Assembly (NCBI GenBank): GCA_021779375.1
Contig: JAJYAT010000004.1
Location: 34,884-98,883 of the forward strand
Length of the DNA: 64,000 nt
From: a bacterium
Lineage (GTDB): Bacteria; Patescibacteriota; Gracilibacteria; JAHISY01
Direction: 5' to 3'
This document shows positions 1 through 49,025 of this stretch, piece by piece (the stretch's first letter is position 1; each line of letters begins with the position of its first letter). The position numbers were made by a program, and so were the translations under genes. The notes beneath the pieces are model-generated. The model saw only the letters and a program-made list of their open reading frames with translations, was not told the origin of the DNA and did not search any database.

Positions 1-2
1 GT

Positions 3-404
3 AAACCGGACGAGACGATTCCAGTTTCTGGCGCGCCGCTTTTGCCCACGACACCGCTGGTCGTTTTGATTAATGAAGGTTCAGCTTCGGCTTCTGAAAT
101 TCTCGCGGGGGCGCTGCAAGACGCTGGACGCGCGAAGCTGCTCGGTGAAAAGAGTTTCGGCAAAGGCACGGTCCAGGAATTAATTTCTGATTTCGCCGAT
201 GGCAGCACGCTGCGAATTACGGTGGCGAAATGGTTCACGCCGAAAGGTCGTGCCATCGACGGCGTCGGTCTCGATCCGGACATCGTCGTCAAAATGCCGC
301 TCGAAGATTATTTCAGTGATCGCGATCCGCAGCTCGATGCCGCGGTCACCTTCCTCAAGACTGGTGAGACTCCGAAAGTTGAAAAATCTACCGAAGGAAA
401 TTAA
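3..404 (+). CDS. ctpA: S41 family C-terminal processing peptidase, 3' part (truncated by window edge)
   Basis: Motifs [46 protein letters not shown] and a C-terminal DPQL; the frame is open back to position 3. Confidence 0.93.
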
Positions 405-416
405 AATCTCGCAACT

Positions 417-463
417 GCTCGGGTGGTGAAATTCCTGCCTGCCGGCAGGCAGGGGTATACACG
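417..463 (+). pseudogene. Duplicated 5' fragment (nt 1-27) of tRNA-Leu(GAG), interrupted by a 20-bp palindrome
   Basis: 417-433 GCTCGGGTGGTGAAATT plus 454-463 GGTATACACG equal 732-758 exactly; the insert occupies 434-453. Confidence 0.9.
434..453. repeat. Perfect 20-bp palindrome CCTGCCTGCCGGCAGGCAGG
   Basis: Self reverse-complementary; a 19/20 copy lies at 18905-18924. Confidence 0.95.
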
Positions 464-479
464 AGATGCTCTAGTTAAA

Positions 480-719
480 ATGTTTTACACATATGTGATA
501 AAAAGTCGAGAAAGAAACTATATTTATGTCGGTTTAACAGGTGATCTCTTGAAAAGGGTGGGCGAACACAATCGTGGGATATCTCGAACTACAAGAAGTT
601 ATAAGCCGTTTGATTTAGTCCACTTCGAAAAATTTTCAACAAGAAACGAGGCTCGCGAAAGAGAAAAATATTTAAAGTCGGGCTGTGGTAAGGACTGGAT
701 TAAGAGTAAACTAGCTTGA
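480..719 (+). CDS. Small stand-alone GIY-YIG nuclease (UPF0213/Slx1-like)
   Basis: MFYTYVIKS...YIYVGLTGDLLKRVGEHN.G...T..YKPF.LVHFE.F..R.EA..RE..LKSG.G; ATG at 480 preferred because the upstream extension (LPAGRQG) is tRNA/palindrome-derived. Confidence 0.9.
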   Translation: MFYTYVIKSRERNYIYVGLTGDLLKRVGEHNRGISRTTRSYKPFDLVHFEKFSTRNEAREREKYLKSGCGKDWIKSKLA

Positions 720-731
720 AATCTAGAATGT

Positions 732-816
732 GCTCGGGTGGTGAAATTGGTATACACGTACGCTTGAGGTGCGTATGCCGCAAGGCGTGGAGGTTCAAGT
801 CCTCTCCCGAGCACCA
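732..816 (+). tRNA. tRNA-Leu, anticodon GAG
   Basis: Acceptor stem GCTCGGG/CCCGAGC, anticodon arm TACGC-TTGAGGT-GCGTA, long variable arm, GGTTCAAGTCC T-arm, encoded CCA. Confidence 0.97.
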
Positions 817-825
817 AAAAATCTT

Positions 826-853
826 CTCAATCAAAAGATTGAGGTTGTTTTTT
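826..853 (+). terminator. Probable intrinsic terminator after tRNA-Leu
   Basis: CTCAATC-AAAA-GATTGAG hairpin followed by GTTGTTTTTT. Confidence 0.6.
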
Positions 854-986
854 GGCGAGCAGAATTGGCGTGGATTTCACACAGGTTCGAATTTGCAGTA
901 TTTACAGAGAGAACGACTGCATTAAAAACCACCAACGAATCAATTTCTAAGCTGTTGAAAAAGCGGTTCAAGCTTGAATAAAGCTT

Positions 987-1340
987 TTAATTCTCTCGAA
1001 TGTCATCAACAATCCAGGTTCCGGCGTAAACTCCATCCACAGTCACTCTTACTTTGTGTCCTAAGTTTTCAGGAGTTGGTGTCGCTTCTCGCGATTCAAT
1101 TTGCCGTTGAATACGAAGATAATTGTCGTAAGCTTTATCGACCGATTTTCTTAAGTCGGAATCGTCTGGATTTGCTTCTTTTGCCCTGAGTAATTCCTCA
1201 TGCTCTCTGAGAGCCCTTCTCTGTTCATATTTTAAATCCTCCAGGGTTGGCTCAGGAATAGTTAAGTCGTTCATGTCCACAATATCAGTTTCAGGATCCA
1301 TTAATCCGACATCTTTTTTATCAGTAGTCTCAGTAGTCAT
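987..1340 (-). CDS. Hypothetical protein (AT-rich, acidic/coiled)
   Basis: 117-aa ATG ORF; TTGACA on the minus strand about 50 nt upstream; no family recognised. Confidence 0.65.
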   Translation of the reverse strand: MTTETTDKKDVGLMDPETDIVDMNDLTIPEPTLEDLKYEQRRALREHEELLRAKEANPDDSDLRKSVDKAYDNYLRIQRQIESREATPTPENLGHKVRVTVDGVYAGTWIVDDIREN

Positions 1341-1545
1341 TTAATAAAATTAAAGGCGTTAATTTTTACATTAAAATAAAATCTTGTCAACTAGATTATT
1401 TGGGCTTATTTTCTCGTCCAATCTGGCTTCGCGGATTGCGGTCTGTTTTTGTCTAGGATGAAATTGAACCAACTTTAAACCCAAAGATTCGCTCAGGCTC
1501 CAAGCTTTAATCCGCAGAGATTCGGAAAGGCGGCAAGAAATAAGC

Positions 1546-2868
1546 TCAGTCGCGTTTCGTGAGCAGTCCTGCGCTGACGAAAAAAATTAGCGCCAGTGGT
1601 GCGAAGAAAAGCGAATTCACGAAAATTGAATGGACGAGCAATCCGGCGCAGGCGGCGAGGAAACCCCAGTTTTTCGCGCGGAAATGTGCGGCGGCGAGAT
1701 TCCACAAAAAAATTCCAAAAATCGCGAGTCCGCTGATGCCTGTCGTCGCGGCGACATTGAGCAGTGAAGCATCCGAGCCAGTCGCGGCATGCGAATCAGC
1801 GGCGGAGAAATTTTGGTGAAATTTATACGCGCCGAAGCCGACTCCGAGTAAGGGTTTTTCGGCAAAAATCCGCCAGCCCTCGTTCCAGCTGTTGACGCGC
1901 AGTTGCGCTGTCGGATCGAGGACTTGCTGTGAGGCGGTACCGAGAGATTCGACCGATTGGCTGAATTCGCCGACGCGTTCCGCTAGTCGCGGCGAACCAG
2001 CGACGCCCAGCATCGCGACCAAAATTCCGGCGAGCAAAATCCGCCGATTGCCAAAAATTCCCAAAACCAAACCGGAGACGCCGAGCGCGAGCAGTCCGCT
2101 GCGCGAAAAAGTCAGCAAGAGTGCGGCGCCGAAAATTCCGGCGCTGGTCAAAATCAAGACTTGGCGTCCGGAATTTTTTTCACGCAAGAAGCGTCCGCCG
2201 AGAAGTGCGAGTAAAAAGGCGAAGGCACCGGCGGCGAAATTCGGATCGAGAAAAGTCGAGGTCAGACGTCCGACGTGCGGATCCCAACCGAGCTCAGTCA
2301 AGCCCGCTTTCGTGAAGTCGGGCAAGATTTGGAAAAGCACGAAGCCAGCGACTGCGAACAAAATTCCGCCGAGGATTAAAGTCAGGAAGACTTGCTCGGT
2401 TTCTTTTTTCGTCAAATCACGCGCGACGAAAATCAAACCGGAAATTCCGACGAAGCGTAAAAAATACAAAAGTGCGAATTTGAAATCTGCGCTCGCGAGT
2501 CCTGCCGAGCCGAGCAGCAAACTTAAAATTCCGACTGCCCAAAAAATCAGCAGACTGCCCGTGACAGCATCGAGTTCGATTTTTTCTTTCGCCAAAAATT
2601 TCCGAGTAAGCCAAAGCATCAGTACGGCTGGTGCGATGAGATCGAGGAGCAAAAAAGAAATTCCGCCCAATTCGACTCGCCCGAATTCGCCGGCGAAAGC
2701 GGCGATGATTGTCGCAGCGAGACCGAAGGTCGGGAAGCGCAGTGCGAACAGTACAAAAATTCCCGCTCCTGCCACTGCGAAAATCAGCTGCGGAGCGAAG
2801 ACGGCACTCGTCGCGAGTGCGAGAATTGCCAGACTTAAAGCGATTTTGTTTTGGGCGAGCGGATGCAC
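1546..2868 (-). CDS. O-antigen ligase/Wzy_C family polytopic membrane protein
   Basis: RLTSTFLDPNFAA, LLTFSRSGLLAL, R...W..G..IF..KPLLGVGFG, TTGISGL, HSIFVN; GTG 2868 preceded by TAAAAT 7 nt upstream. Confidence 0.88.
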   Translation of the reverse strand: MHPLAQNKIALSLAILALATSAVFAPQLIFAVAGAGIFVLFALRFPTFGLAATIIAAFAGEFGRVELGGISFLLLDLIAPAVLMLWLTRKFLAKEKIELDAVTGSLLIFWAVGILSLLLGSAGLASADFKFALLYFLRFVGISGLIFVARDLTKKETEQVFLTLILGGILFAVAGFVLFQILPDFTKAGLTELGWDPHVGRLTSTFLDPNFAAGAFAFLLALLGGRFLREKNSGRQVLILTSAGIFGAALLLTFSRSGLLALGVSGLVLGIFGNRRILLAGILVAMLGVAGSPRLAERVGEFSQSVESLGTASQQVLDPTAQLRVNSWNEGWRIFAEKPLLGVGFGAYKFHQNFSAADSHAATGSDASLLNVAATTGISGLAIFGIFLWNLAAAHFRAKNWGFLAACAGLLVHSIFVNSLFFAPLALIFFVSAGLLTKRD

Positions 2869-2926
2869 GCGCTTGATTTTAGCGTGTCGAGAAGGTAATT
2901 TGGAATGGAATTTTAATTTTCCCAAA

Positions 2927-4285
2927 ATGCTCGTTCGTAAATTTGGCGGCACCTCGATGGGTTCGACCGAGTCTATTTCGACGGTCGTCAAGATTGTCCA
3001 ATCTCACCGCGGCGAACAGGTCGTGGCGGTCTCGGCGATGTCGGGCGTGACTGATTCGCTGCTCGCGGCGACGAAGGCGGCGCTCGCGGGTCGACGTACG
3101 CTAGTCAAAAAAGTCATTGCCGAAATGCTCGCGCGTCACATCGAGACAGCGGGCAAGAACATTCAAAATGAAAAAGTTTTGGCGGAGACGAACCAGTATT
3201 TTGAAAAAGTTTTGTGTGATTTGTCGAATTTCCTGAAAGCGATTCAGGAGCTCGGCGAACTTTCGATTCGTTCGAAAAATACAATTATGGCAGTCGGGGA
3301 GCGGCTCTCCGCCAAAATGCTCGCGGGTATTTTGACTTCCGCCGGATCGCCGGCTGAGCAGCTCGACCTCGAAAAAGCCATTCCACAAAAATTCAAAAAG
3401 GCTGATCACGATTTCTATATCGCGACGGAAAAAATCTTTGCGCAAAAAGTTCGCAAGATTCTTGCCAAAAAGAAAATTCCCATCGCGACGGGCTACTTCG
3501 GCTGGGTGCCGGGCGGTATGCTTGACGCGGTCGGGCGCGGTTATTCCGACTACTGTGCGGCGCTCATCGCGGCTGGTGTAGCGGCGAAGAGTCTTGAAAT
3601 TTGGACAGACGTGTCAGGTATCCTGACCGCTGATCCGCGCAAAATTCCGCAAGCCAAAATTATCGACGATATCTCGAGCGAGGCGGCAGCGGAGCTGGCG
3701 CACTTCGGTGCCAAGGTCATTCACCCACAGTCGATTCATCCGGCGATTCGCGCGCGGGTGCCGGTCTGGATCAAAAACACTTTTCGCCCGGGCGATCGCG
3801 GCACGGCAATTCTCCCCGAGATCAAAAACCCGCCGCAGATTATGACTTCGGTGACCTGCAAAAAAGGCGTGACCATCGTGAATATCGCGAGCTTCCGCAT
3901 GCTGCTGCAGTACGGTTTTCTCGCCAAGATTTTCAATGTCTTCGCGAAATACGAAATTCCGATTGATGTGGTTTCGACTTCTGAAGTTTCCGTTTCGGTC
4001 ACGATCGAAGACGAATCGAAATTGCCAGAAATTATCAAAGAGCTCACGCCGGTTTCCAAAATTTCCGTCCATCCGAAGAAGGCAATTATTTGCTTAGTCG
4101 GCATGGGCATCTACAAACGGCGCGGCGTCGCCGGTGAAGTTTTCGCGACGCTCGGCGCGGCTGACATTTCCATTGATCAGATTTCACAGGGCGCGAGTGA
4201 GATCAATATCACTTTCGTCGTTGACGAAAAAGACGCTGACAAGGCGGTCGCGATTTTGCACAAAAAGTTTTTTGAAAATGCTTGA
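2927..4285 (+). CDS. lysC: Aspartate kinase with C-terminal ACT domains
   Basis: VRKFGGTSMG, VAVSAMSGVTD, GRGYSDY, IWTDVSGILTADPR, AELAHFGAKVIHP, STSEVSVS, SQGASEINI. Confidence 0.95.
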   Translation: MLVRKFGGTSMGSTESISTVVKIVQSHRGEQVVAVSAMSGVTDSLLAATKAALAGRRTLVKKVIAEMLARHIETAGKNIQNEKVLAETNQYFEKVLCDLSNFLKAIQELGELSIRSKNTIMAVGERLSAKMLAGILTSAGSPAEQLDLEKAIPQKFKKADHDFYIATEKIFAQKVRKILAKKKIPIATGYFGWVPGGMLDAVGRGYSDYCAALIAAGVAAKSLEIWTDVSGILTADPRKIPQAKIIDDISSEAAAELAHFGAKVIHPQSIHPAIRARVPVWIKNTFRPGDRGTAILPEIKNPPQIMTSVTCKKGVTIVNIASFRMLLQYGFLAKIFNVFAKYEIPIDVVSTSEVSVSVTIEDESKLPEIIKELTPVSKISVHPKKAIICLVGMGIYKRRGVAGEVFATLGAADISIDQISQGASEINITFVVDEKDADKAVAILHKKFFENA

Positions 4286-18880: not shown

Positions 18881-18939
18881 AATTCCCTCCTTTCGCAAAG
18901 GAGGCCTGCCTGCCGGTAGGCAGGGTTAGGGAGGATTTT
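18881..18939. repeat. CCCTCCTTT-CGC-AAAGGAGGG/GTTAGGGAGG REP-like hairpin interrupted by the 20-bp CCTGCC palindrome (18905-18924)
   Basis: Removing CCTGCCTGCCGGTAGGCAGG extends the hairpin stem by one pair and leaves a continuous element. Confidence 0.8.
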
Positions 18940-48955: not shown

Positions 48956-49025
48956 GTGCGGATGATTTTACAATAAAAGAATGCAGAAACGCGATTGATT
49001 ATGTTGCTACCGAGAGGGATGACAG

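What the first reader, a model, noticed from the sequence alone, without database searches (positions are those of the whole stretch)
402..816. Minimal GIY-YIG nuclease element sitting in a 5'-end duplication of tRNA-Leu
Seen: TAAAAT (402-407) precedes an exact copy of tRNA-Leu nt 1-27 (417-463). An AT-rich 79-aa GIY-YIG gene follows, then the complete tRNA-Leu (732-816). The -10 box sits 9 nt before the fragment, the same spacing as at tRNA-Ser, which suggests the fragment marks the original tRNA start. Known: integrase-based islands usually duplicate the tRNA 3' end and encode a recombinase; no recombinase is present here. UPF0213/Slx1-like GIY-YIG proteins cut structured DNA. Inference: a roughly 300-bp selfish cassette that targets tRNA genes through the D-arm, regenerates the tRNA downstream and is expressed from the tRNA promoter. 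This would be a recombinase-free tRNA-homing module.
Basis: partly seen in the sequence, partly recalled or inferred. Interest (0 to 1): 0.78.

Follow-up and report, generated by a model that had tools for sequence, protein, structure and literature searches.

The report
Tiny nuclease cassette splitting a tRNA gene
A 300-base insert carrying a 79-residue nuclease gene has split a leucine tRNA gene and rebuilt an intact copy behind itself, and the same design recurs at many tRNA genes in two bacterial phyla, which points to a widespread, very small selfish element that the paper searches here did not find described.

Summary
The upstream "copy of tRNA-Leu nt 1-27" is nt 1-17 (417-433), then a perfect 20-nt palindrome (434-453), then nt 18-27 (454-463).

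Three congeners have the empty site: ctpA, leader, intact tRNA. Two others carry ORF-less remnants. So the upstream fragment is the ancestral 5' end, and about 300 bp was inserted (palindrome, UTR, GIY-YIG ORF 480-719, a diverged leader copy and a regenerating tRNA 5' part).

The protein is a catalytic-domain-only GIY-YIG nuclease of the Slx1/UPF0213 type with conserved catalytic residues.

The design is general. Of 82 homologous loci across the phylum, 65 lie within 600 nt of a tRNA, all on the same strand (random control 6%). Of 46 loci with a downstream tRNA, 36 have a 5' fragment and 33 also a GC hairpin. A mirror form with 3' fragments exists, and the design also occurs in Bacteroidota.

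Protein clades follow tRNA isotype, and occupancy differs at four sites between the two closest genomes.

Best reading: a homing-type cassette that uses the tRNA as homology arms, like phage SegB. Nuclease-driven mobility is inferred, not shown.

The palindrome is a separately dispersed mini-repeat found in many phyla, and its role is unexplained.

The parts
3..404 (+). 3' end of the upstream gene (S41/CtpA-type peptidase). This is context that fixes the ancestral left flank.
   Evidence: Pfam Peptidase_S41, E 3.3e-29. It is syntenic in G001, G002, G006, G007 and G008.
379..407 (+). Promoter-like site of the original tRNA-Leu gene (TTGAAA, 17 nt, TAAAAT). It now stands in front of the fragment and the ORF.
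   Evidence: Consensus scan, 10 of 12 matches. The same TAAAAT + 9 nt spacing occurs at tRNA-Ser. Function is inferred.
401..416 (+). Ancestral leader of tRNA-Leu.
   Evidence: It matches the leader in front of the intact tRNA in the empty alleles L009, L010 and L011.
417..433 (+). Displaced tRNA-Leu 5' fragment, nt 1-17.
   Evidence: Exact match to 732-748 (family D1).
434..453 (.). Perfect 20-nt palindrome inserted in the D-loop of the fragment. It belongs to a dispersed mini-repeat.
   Evidence: Inverted repeat I6, 100%. 13 copies in the genome at up to 3 mismatches. Exact copies occur in many phyla.
454..463 (+). Displaced tRNA-Leu fragment, nt 18-27. The copy ends at the D-arm/anticodon-stem junction.
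   Evidence: Exact match to 749-758 (family D5).
464..479 (+). 16-nt spacer (5' UTR) of the cassette.
   Evidence: Read from the sequence. Across the family the spacing from fragment end to ATG is 24-75 nt.
480..719 (+). 79-aa GIY-YIG nuclease gene, catalytic domain only, Slx1/UPF0213 type.
   Evidence: Pfam PF01541, E 2.1e-17. Invariant Y5, Y16, G18, R26, H30, E62, K66. PDB 1zg2, E 9e-17. AF2 pLDDT 94.3. 6 synonymous and 2 non-synonymous differences in the X5 strain.
716..731 (+). Leader': a diverged copy of the leader (11 of 16 identical) brought in with the insert. It holds the ORF's stop codon.
   Evidence: family D1. It is identical in the G008 remnant.
732..816 (+). Intact, single-copy tRNA-Leu(GAG). 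Its first 27 nt are the regenerated part.
   Evidence: ARAGORN. Rfam 52.4 bits. It is the only Leu(GAG) gene among the 46 tRNAs of the genome.
825..854 (+). Terminator-like hairpin with a T run that closes the transcription unit.
   Evidence: Consensus scan.

Best explanation
The tRNA-Leu(GAG) gene has been invaded by a cassette of about 300 bp. Its only gene encodes a 79-residue GIY-YIG nuclease of the Slx1/UPF0213 type.

The cassette sits inside a partial duplication of the tRNA. The ancestral promoter, leader and tRNA nt 1-27 are left upstream as a dead fragment. The cassette carries its own leader copy plus the tRNA 5' part, so an intact tRNA is rebuilt directly behind the ORF. The ORF is thereby placed inside the tRNA transcription unit, between the tRNA promoter and the tRNA.

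It is one member of a large family of such cassettes in Patescibacteria and Bacteroidota. Their lineages keep to one tRNA isotype.

Shown: the insertion, the regeneration of the tRNA, the recurrence of the design, its turnover between close relatives, and the conserved catalytic residues.

Inferred: the nuclease cuts cassette-free tRNA genes, and the break is repaired from a cassette-bearing copy with the tRNA sequence on both sides as homology arms. This would be homing of a free-standing endonuclease gene, as shown for phage SegB.

The 20-nt palindrome in the fragment is a separately dispersed mini-repeat that lands in stem-loop DNA. Whether it serves the cassette is open.
For: 1. Empty alleles in G001, G002 and G006. 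ORF-less remnants that share leader' or the fragment in G008 and G007.
2. A second clean pair at tRNA-Ser(GGA): empty in G000, and about 286 nt inserted in G008. The flanks align at 90-94% and overlap by 22 nt.
3. At tRNA-Asn the ORF is present in G000, G001, G006 and G004. G002 and G008 have ORF-less forms.
4. Of 82 loci, 65 have a tRNA within 600 nt, and all 65 are on the ORF's strand. 51 are within 100 nt. The random control is 6.0%.
5. Of 46 loci with a downstream tRNA, 36 carry a 5' fragment that starts at nt 1-4, 24-75 nt before the ATG. 33 of the 46 also have a GC hairpin next to it.
6. The mirror form is tRNA, ORF, 3' pseudo-tRNA. A tRNA piece follows the ORF in 7 of 19 loci.
7. Protein clades follow isotype: Leu aLRT 93, Ser 97, Asn 98, Gln 94. 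There are 34 label changes against 42-53 in 200 shuffles.
8. Catalytic residues are invariant in 24 sequences. The X5 strain shows 6 synonymous and 2 non-synonymous changes.
9. The ORF has 37% G+C against 49% for the genome.
10. Precedent: SegB cuts inside tRNA genes and spreads or amplifies with them by recombination (PMC2330249 abstract; PMC13096335 sections 9 and 10).
Against: - No cleavage, homing or expression data exist for any member.
- The protein has no DNA-binding domain, unlike characterised GIY-YIG homing enzymes, so how it would find a tRNA gene is unknown.
- The rebuilt tRNA is identical to the tRNA of the empty alleles. A target lying wholly inside the tRNA would therefore also be cut in the carrier.
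- No near-identical cassette was found in a distant host. The only DNA-level relative is 71% identical, at tRNA-Leu(TAG) of G006. Recent horizontal transfer is thus not shown, and isotype clustering could be partly vertical descent.
- 17 of 82 loci have no tRNA nearby, and 10 of 46 loci with a downstream tRNA show no fragment by my criteria.
- The class and phylum loci are the best matches to a profile built mostly from tRNA-linked ORFs. That inflates the enrichment figure.
Confidence: 0.6

Rival explanations
1. Structure-targeting element, a partnership like REP and RAYT. The small GIY-YIG nuclease acts on DNA stem-loops or cruciforms. Its cassettes and the 14-22-nt GC palindromes enter structured DNA (arms of tRNA genes, hairpin repeats) with duplication of the target. 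tRNA genes are simply the most common structured targets.
For: - In the phylum sample the palindrome occurs in 45 of 108 genomes with the GIY-YIG family and in 2 of 43 without it (Fisher p 2e-6, Spearman 0.46).
- Two ORFs of G000 that are not at tRNAs are flanked by direct repeats of 31 and 36 nt that contain hairpins.
- In Bacteroidota, 17 of 29 loci have no tRNA within 800 nt. By eye, many of them are preceded by hairpin repeats.
- The palindrome often sits at the apex of an existing hairpin or in a tRNA arm.
- The closest solved relatives, Slx1 nucleases, cut branched DNA by the titles of their entries.
Against: - Of 80 palindrome sites from all phyla, only 4 have a GIY-YIG gene within 500 nt and 9 have a tRNA within 500 nt.
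- The co-occurrence is not corrected for phylogeny.
- The leader and leader' are mostly unlike beyond a few bases. This does not fit a fresh target duplication.
- No mechanism is known for copying a 20-nt palindrome.
Confidence: 0.2
2. A host-serving gene that happens to be linked to tRNAs. The nuclease has a cellular role in repair, recombination or tRNA metabolism and is co-transcribed with tRNAs. The duplications arise from ordinary recombination at tRNA genes, not from the nuclease.
For: - The ORF is kept intact with mostly synonymous change.
- Prokaryotic Slx1-like genes are linked or fused to methyltransferases, one of them TrmH-like (PMC1564403, section 11).
- One clade, next to tRNA-Met, has genome-like G+C (49.6%) and is conserved in several congeners.
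- 9 of the 12 tRNAs with self-fragments in G000 have no GIY-YIG ORF nearby.
Against: - Copy number runs from 0 to 13 per genome.
- Occupancy differs at four tRNA sites between two genomes that are about 92% identical.
- Degenerate remnants exist.
- G+C is foreign at 33-37% in the tRNA-split copies.
- A host gene has no need to sit inside a duplicated tRNA.
Confidence: 0.15
3. Scar of an integrase-type island, a tRNA intron, an assembly error or a chance repeat.
For: tRNA genes are classic integration sites (recalled knowledge). Other tRNAs of this genome carry 3' fragments.
Against: - No recombinase lies within about 4 kb downstream, and the upstream neighbour is ctpA.
- The duplication is of the 5' end, and the insert is about 300 bp.
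- Rfam finds only the tRNA in 1-3000, at E up to 1.
- A duplicated 5' part is not what an intron leaves.
- An independent study's contig shows the same structure.
- The layout recurs in 36 of 46 loci.
Confidence: 0.03

Closest known systems
SegB, the free-standing GIY-YIG homing endonuclease of T-even phages
   Same: - It is a GIY-YIG nuclease gene set among tRNA genes.
- It cuts inside tRNA genes; its recognition site includes the conserved T-psi-C stem-loop motif.
- It is inherited together with flanking tRNA DNA by break repair.
- It drives recombination-dependent segmental amplification.
- segB homologues are enriched within 1 kb of tRNAs in phages.

Sources: PMC2330249 abstract; PMC13096335 sections 9 and 10.
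   Different: - SegB is phage-borne and, from recall, larger, with a DNA-binding part.
- The protein here is chromosomal, 79 aa and catalytic domain only. It is nearer to Slx1/UPF0213 than to I-TevI-type enzymes.
- Here the gene lies inside a partial duplication of a single tRNA gene with a hairpin module. I did not see this described for SegB in the parts I read.
Bacterial UPF0213 / Slx1-like stand-alone GIY-YIG proteins (BH0048, EF2693)
   Same: These are the best sequence matches among solved structures (1zg2, E 9e-17; 1ywl, 1.6e-14; SLX1 chains, 9e-10 and weaker). The fold agrees (Slx1, TM 0.67-0.71). Size and domain content are the same.
   Different: The one review section I read (PMC1564403, section 11) treats them as repair or unknown-function proteins with methyltransferase links. 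It does not treat them as mobile cassettes in tRNA genes. Eukaryotic Slx1 has a RING domain and needs Slx4.
GIY-YIG ORFs in non-intron insertions of CPR rRNA genes
   Same: Same phylum. A GIY-YIG ORF lies in an insertion that is neither a group I nor a group II intron, inside a structured RNA gene. Those insertions lie mostly at the top or base of stem-loops (PMC11270868, passages).
   Different: The host gene is an rRNA, with no regenerating duplication described. [quoted passage not shown]
Integrase-type genomic islands and prophages in tRNA genes
   Same: The target is a tRNA gene, and the element carries a piece of the tRNA so that an intact gene is restored and a fragment is left (recalled knowledge).
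   Different: Those duplicate the 3' part, encode a recombinase and span kilobases. Here the 5' part is duplicated (or the 3' part in the mirror form), there is no recombinase and the insert is about 300 bp.
Mobile GIY-YIG ORFs of fungal mitochondria that bring a replacement gene end
   Same: An endonuclease ORF travels with a copy of part of the host gene. The resident part is displaced as a pseudo-fragment.
   Different: The hosts are protein-coding genes and 3' ends, in organelles. Those enzymes have additional domains.
REP elements and their RAYT transposases (recalled)
   Same: A small nuclease gene is associated with, and sometimes flanked by, dispersed short palindromes.
   Different: RAYTs are HUH/Y1 enzymes, whereas this is a GIY-YIG enzyme. 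Here the link is only a co-occurrence.

Membership tests
GIY-YIG nuclease superfamily (Pfam PF01541) | Match to the domain profile above the curated cut-off | tested here: met
   63.6 bits against a cut-off of 22.6, E 2.1e-17, residues 1-67.
GIY-YIG nuclease superfamily (Pfam PF01541) | Conserved GIY Tyr, YIG Tyr/Gly, central Arg and C-terminal Glu (as listed in PMC1564403, Background) | tested here: met
   Y5, Y16, G18, R26, H30, E62 and K66 are invariant, and N31 is at least 90% conserved, in 24 sequences.
GIY-YIG nuclease superfamily (Pfam PF01541) | The beta-beta-alpha-beta-alpha fold | tested here: met
   AF2 model with pLDDT 94.3 and elements E-E-H-E-H-H. The top Foldseek matches are all GIY-YIG domains, with weak E-values (from 1.9e-3) because the protein is short.
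Slx1 / UPF0213 clade | Closer to UPF0213 and Slx1 than to I-TevI or UvrC types | tested here: met
   Sequence search: 1zg2 at 9e-17, 1ywl at 1.6e-14 and SLX1 at 9e-10, with no I-TevI or UvrC chain at E up to 1e-3. Fold: Slx1 TM 0.67-0.71, I-TevI 0.51, UvrC 0.54.
Homing endonuclease gene (functional class) | Presence/absence polymorphism at one homologous site, with degenerate copies | tested here: met
   tRNA-Leu(GAG): occupied in G000, remnants in G008 and G007, empty in G001, G002 and G006. tRNA-Ser(GGA): empty in G000, occupied in G008.
Homing endonuclease gene (functional class) | The enzyme cuts the element-free allele and is copied into it | not testable with these tools
   This needs biochemistry and a conversion assay.
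Homing endonuclease gene (functional class) | A DNA-binding module that gives site specificity, as in I-TevI and Seg enzymes (recalled) | tested here: not met
   The 79 aa are filled by the catalytic domain (Pfam residues 1-67; the model has no extra domain).
SegB-like phage endonucleases | Sequence membership | tested here: inconclusive
   Only weak PHROG matches to 'homing endonuclease' families (E 5.7e-4 and 2.9e-3). No SegB sequence was compared directly.
Integrase-type tRNA island | A tyrosine or serine recombinase in the element, and a 3' tRNA duplication | tested here: not met
   The neighbours are an S41 peptidase, an unassigned ORF, Wzy_C and an aspartokinase. The duplicated part is nt 1-27.
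tRNA group I/II intron | A ribozyme core, and an insert that interrupts rather than duplicates the gene | tested here: not met
   Rfam at E up to 1 on 1-3000 finds only the tRNA. The tRNA behind the ORF is complete.
Known anti-phage defence proteins (PADLOC) and NCBI named families | Profile match | tested here: not met
   0 families in PADLOC and 0 in NCBIfam at E up to 0.01.

The most novel reading that the evidence does not exclude
The catalytic-domain-only Slx1/UPF0213-type nucleases of bacteria are not housekeeping enzymes. They would be the engine of a mobile system, found in several phyla, that targets DNA structure rather than sequence. It would cut stem-loop DNA, with tRNA-gene arms as the favourite target. 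It would spread both its own 240-nt gene, wrapped in tRNA homology arms, and a set of 14-22-nt GC palindromes. This would explain why an identical 20-mer palindrome sits in unrelated contexts in many phyla, and why about a quarter of the tRNA genes of this genome carry hairpin-bearing pseudo-copies.
Probability: 0.17. Interest if true: 0.9.

Novelty: new variant of a known kind. Interest (0 to 1): 0.72.

Why it matters
- It would give a first biological role to a very common family of roughly 80-100-residue 'GIY-YIG nuclease family' proteins. These are relatives of eukaryotic Slx1, and their function in bacteria is unsettled.
- It would define one of the smallest self-contained mobile units known: one 240-nt gene plus pieces of its target.
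- It explains a source of pseudo-tRNA fragments that confuse tRNA annotation. In this genome, 12 of 46 tRNAs carry such fragments.
- It shows tRNA genes acting as portable homology arms in genome-reduced bacteria.
- A catalytic-domain-only nuclease that still finds tRNA genes would be of interest for how structure-specific recognition works.
- The mini-palindrome found in many phyla is a separate open puzzle.

Tried and rejected
- **Dimer prediction.** Two copies of the protein gave score 0.04 and the verdict 'no answer'. This is not evidence either way.
- **The search for related loci.** I used the genome search instead.
- **The search of earlier findings.** It was closed.
- **Expression.** The run search listed RNA or possibly-RNA runs (X15-X20) only with shares of 0.05-0.06. 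None was laid, so there is no evidence on expression.
- **Joint 454->638 in X5.** It rests on one contig with 21 nt on its shorter side. I disregarded it.
- **Recent transfer.** L044 and L028 are nearly identical, but so are their flanks, so this is vertical descent. L032 and L026 share the cassette at 67-80% with unalignable flanks, which is inconclusive.
- **RNA fold of 408-500.** Only the palindrome hairpin stands out; z-score -0.96.
- **Leader argument.** The five differences between the repeat copies all fall in the 16-nt leader. By my arithmetic this has a chance of about 0.007 under a uniform model, but only about 0.05 once constraint on the live tRNA is allowed for. This is weak.
  - None returned a paper on small cellular GIY-YIG genes inside tRNA duplications, or one holding the palindrome sequence.
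  - One search was badly framed and uninformative.
  - Subscription journals and supplements were not searchable, so a prior description may exist.
Full report
**1. What is in the sequence**

ARAGORN finds tRNA-Leu(GAG) at 732-816, and Rfam confirms it at 52.4 bits. No other RNA family matches 1-3000 at E up to 1.

The repeat finder shows three things.
- 401-433 repeats 716-748 and is reported as 85% identical over 33 nt. By my count the five differences all lie in the 16 nt before the tRNA.
- 454-463 repeats 749-758 exactly.
- Between them, 434-453 is a perfect 10+10 palindrome.

So the upstream copy is leader, tRNA nt 1-17, a 20-nt palindrome and tRNA nt 18-27. It is not a contiguous copy of nt 1-27.

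The ORF runs 480-719 and encodes 79 aa. My first coordinates were off by one. It matches Pfam GIY-YIG at E 2.1e-17.

A promoter-like site (TTGAAA, 17 nt, TAAAAT) ends at 407, 9 nt before the fragment. tRNA-Ser has the same TAAAAT + 9 nt spacing. The only terminator-like hairpin follows the tRNA at 825-854. The ORF has 37.1% G+C against 48.8% for the window.

**2. It is an insertion, and the fragment is the old gene start**

The window lies in a 1.07-Mb genome of 14 contigs. A DNA search of 40 relatives, read at base level, gave the following.
- In congeners G001, G002 and G006 the ctpA stop is followed by the same kind of leader and then directly by an intact tRNA-Leu. This is the empty site.
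- The closest relative is G008, 92% identical over ctpA. It has fragment nt 1-14, half of the palindrome, the last 25 nt or so of the ORF, the identical leader' and the tRNA. This is a cassette that has lost its ORF.
- G007 has fragment nt 1-17, another hairpin, about 55 nt and the tRNA.

The leader in front of the fragment matches the ancestral leader. The leader in front of the live tRNA is the diverged one. Hence about 300 bp entered the gene and brought a replacement 5' part.

No recombinase is nearby. The neighbours are an S41 peptidase, an unassigned 117-aa ORF, an O-antigen ligase and an aspartokinase.

**3. It is not an artefact, and the ORF is under constraint**

Logan contigs of run X1 span 200-787 without a difference, though X1 may be the source sample. 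A 3978-nt contig of run X5, from another study, spans 201-767. It shows the same architecture, 17 substitutions and a 2-nt insertion in the leader.

Eight of those substitutions lie in the ORF. Six are synonymous and two are not (R59C, A79T).

**4. The protein**

In an alignment of 24 family members, Y5, Y16, G18, R26, H30, A58, E62 and K66 are invariant, and N31 is nearly so.

A profile search of solved structures gives UPF0213 proteins BH0048 (9e-17) and EF2693 (1.6e-14), then SLX1 chains. No I-TevI or UvrC chain appears at E up to 1e-3.

The AF2 model is confident, with pLDDT 94.3 and the order beta-beta-alpha-beta-alpha-alpha. Foldseek ranks UPF0213 and Slx1 first (TM 0.67-0.71), ahead of I-TevI (0.51). 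The E-values are weak because the protein is short.

NCBIfam and PADLOC give nothing, and PHROGs gives only weak 'homing endonuclease' matches.

**5. The design recurs**

*Own genome.* G000 has six small GIY-YIG ORFs, and four of them have a tRNA in their locus.

*Family.* In 12 genomes of the family the protein search listed 56 matches. I analysed 33 loci: the 30 given as loci plus three more of G000's own loci fetched. The remaining listed matches were not fetched. Of the 33, 25 have a tRNA within 600 nt.

*Class and phylum.* For a wider look I built profile A1 from 24 of the 33. I left out nine:
- the divergent clade L003, L006 and L042;
- the tRNA-Met-linked clade L005, L029, L036, L037 and L038;
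- L039.

A1 matched 102 of 121 genomes of the class and 108 of 151 of the phylum, with up to 13 copies per genome.

*Pooled figures for all 82 loci held.*
- 65 have their nearest tRNA within 600 nt.
- All 65 are on the ORF's strand.
- The tRNA is downstream in 46 and upstream in 19.
- It is within 100 nt in 51.
- Random 240-nt intervals in G000 score 6.0%.

*Layout.* Of the 46 loci with a downstream tRNA, 36 carry a fragment that starts at tRNA nt 1-4 and ends 24-75 nt before the ATG. 33 of the 46 also have a GC-rich hairpin next to it.

Fifteen isotypes host a cassette with the tRNA downstream: Leu, Ser, Gln, Pro, Asn, Met, Gly, Lys, Phe, His, Asp, Glu, Tyr and Arg, and, counting both orientations, Val, Ala, Ile and Thr as well.

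The copy ends at the D-arm/anticodon-stem junction, in the anticodon loop or in the T-loop. The hairpin is either a pure insertion or replaces an arm of about the same length.

*Caveat.* The class and phylum loci are the top matches to a profile made mostly from tRNA-linked ORFs, so the 65 of 82 overstates the rate for the whole superfamily.

**6. Mirror form, remnants and turnover**

Where the tRNA is upstream, a 3' pseudo-tRNA with hairpins can follow the ORF, for example L023 Val, L056 Gln, L069 Met and L079 Phe. A tRNA piece of at least 10 nt follows the ORF in 7 of 19 such loci.

Several loci hold one or two extra tandem units of leader' plus hairpin-bearing pseudo-tRNA.

In G000, 12 of 46 tRNAs have self-fragments within 500 nt, and only 3 of those have a GIY-YIG ORF nearby. 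ORF-less units therefore outnumber full cassettes.

G000 and G008 are the closest pair, yet occupancy differs at four sites:

| Site | G000 | G008 |
|---|---|---|
| Leu(GAG) | full cassette | remnant |
| Ser(GGA) | empty | occupied: about 286 nt inserted, flanks 90-94% identical |
| Asn | ORF present | ORF-less |
| Phe | ORF absent | ORF present |

**7. Lineages keep to an isotype**

A quick maximum-likelihood tree of the 82 proteins is poorly resolved (87 columns). It still groups Leu cassettes from six genomes of several families and classes (aLRT 93), Ser(GGA) (97), Asn (98) and Gln (94).

Isotype labels change 34 times on the tree, against 42-53 in 200 shuffles. Kin share labels, so part of this is descent.

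The Leu clade sits at three isoacceptors (GAG, TAG, CAA). This argues for moves between similar tRNA genes.

**8. The palindrome is a separate, dispersed unit**

*In G000.* The palindrome occurs 13 times at up to 3 mismatches, and 7 of those are within 300 nt of a tRNA. The contexts include pseudo-copies of tRNA-Phe, Leu(TAA) and Tyr. The copies near tRNA-Pro and tRNA-Arg look like pseudo-tRNA contexts too, but I judged those only from the flanks printed.

*In other cassettes.* It marks Leu cassettes in distant genomes (L019, L057, L059, L100) at different positions in the fragment.

*Across phyla.* An exact-match scan of one genome per species stopped at its limit with 120 stretches. The hits fall in Patescibacteria, Bacteroidota (cultured isolates included), Omnitrophota, Planctomycetota, Proteobacteria and others.

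Of the 80 shown, 4 have a family member within 500 nt and 9 have a tRNA within 500 nt. The flanks are unrelated. The unit often sits at the tip of an existing hairpin or inside other repeats.

*Co-occurrence.* In the phylum sample it occurs in 45 of 108 genomes with the nuclease family and in 2 of 43 without it (Fisher 2e-6, Spearman 0.46, no phylogenetic correction).

*Hairpins in general.* G000 holds 230 GC-rich perfect hairpins. 17 of them lie within 300 nt of a tRNA, a zone that covers 2.7% of the genome.

I cannot say whether the hairpin serves the cassette or merely lands where it is tolerated. Service could mean stabilising the mRNA 5' end, breaking up the direct repeat or marking a nuclease site.

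**9. Beyond the phylum**

Five Bacteroidota genomes that hold the palindrome have 3-18 family members each. 12 of 29 loci lie within 800 nt of a same-strand tRNA.
- Several show the same layout of 5' fragment and hairpin (L233 Leu, L244 Pro, L259/L261 Pro).
- One locus has tRNA-Met followed by tandem ORF-plus-3'-pseudo units.
- Of the other 17, many are preceded by hairpin repeats.

**10. Mechanism**

*Shown:* insertion with regeneration of the gene, recurrence, turnover, and a conserved active site.

*Inferred:*
- Homing by break repair with the tRNA as homology arms.
- Spread to similar tRNAs by ectopic recombination.
- Decay by recombination between the repeats, which leaves solo pseudo-units.

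*Precedent:* phage SegB.
- Its site includes the T-psi-C motif.
- It is inherited with the tRNA region.
- Its cuts inside tRNA genes drive recombination-dependent amplification.

(PMC2330249 abstract; PMC13096335 sections 9 and 10.)

*Open problems:*
- The protein has no DNA-binding domain.
- The rebuilt tRNA is identical to the empty allele's tRNA, so self-immunity is unexplained.
- No recent horizontal transfer was caught.

**11. Prior knowledge**

- The GIY-YIG survey of 2006 (section 'Slx-1 cluster' read) notes methyltransferase links of prokaryotic Slx1-like genes. It says nothing about tRNA genes as insertion sites.
- A 2024 study of CPR rRNA insertions (passages read) reports GIY-YIG ORFs in non-intron insertions near stem-loops and does not mention tRNA.
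- None of the ten searches returned a description of this design or of the palindrome.

Noticed in passing
window 434-453 and 18905-18924; loci L102-L181: An identical 20-nt GC palindrome occurs as a bare insertion in unrelated contexts in many bacterial phyla, cultured Bacteroidota included. It often sits at the tip of an existing hairpin or inside other repeats. No paper in the searchable library holds the sequence.
   Followed up: partly
G000 C2:21073-21254, C5:40600-41650, C10:26130-26305, C13:1901-2050: 12 of the 46 tRNA genes of this genome have partial self-copies within 500 nt, and most have no ORF. One is a full-length pseudo-tRNA-Phe whose D-arm is replaced by one hairpin and whose T-loop is split by the 20-nt palindrome.
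   Followed up: partly
L009, L010, L012 about 130-150 nt after tRNA-Leu; G000 C5:105038-105060: This looks like a second kind of small insert. A shared motif (GAGCCAGCTTC, then the T-loop) is followed by the last 17-23 nt of the tRNA. It lies about 130-150 nt downstream of intact tRNA-Leu and tRNA-Ala genes in several genomes and carries no ORF.
   Followed up: no
L003 (G000 C12:38186-38386) and L006 (G000 C12:118250-118459): Two GIY-YIG ORFs that are not at tRNAs are flanked by direct repeats of 31 and 36 nt that contain hairpins. L006 lies in a field of further dispersed hairpin repeats.
   Followed up: partly
L004, L032, L026, L040, L045 (ORF 3' ends): Several cassette ORFs have no stop before the tRNA. 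They read into it and end at the TAG or TAA of the D-loop, so the last residues are encoded by the tRNA gene itself.
   Followed up: no
L005, L037, L038, L036, L029: A separate GIY-YIG clade lies 127-399 nt downstream of tRNA-Met in L005, L037 and L038 (L036 and L029 have no tRNA nearby). Its G000 member has genome-like G+C (49.6%). The clade is conserved in several congeners and may be a resident rather than a mobile form.
   Followed up: no
window 402-416 and 48956-48970 (minus strand): Both tRNA genes of the window have TAAAAT exactly 9 nt before the mature 5' end. This suggests transcripts that start at or within a base or two of the tRNA.
   Followed up: no
L232/L237/L242 (G267 C11:46831-47761); G042 C1:482727-483284; G045 C26:370-932: Tandem arrays of near-identical GIY-YIG cassettes occur with a period of 321-341 nt. 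In L232/L237/L242 each unit ends in a 3' pseudo-tRNA; the G042 and G045 pairs were seen only as coordinates in the match table. The arrangement recalls the segmental amplification reported for SegB.
   Followed up: no
L020 (G009 C7): Two pseudo-tRNA-Met units in one locus carry a 22-nt double-hairpin insert at the same tRNA position (between nt 10 and 11), apparently in opposite orientations.
   Followed up: no
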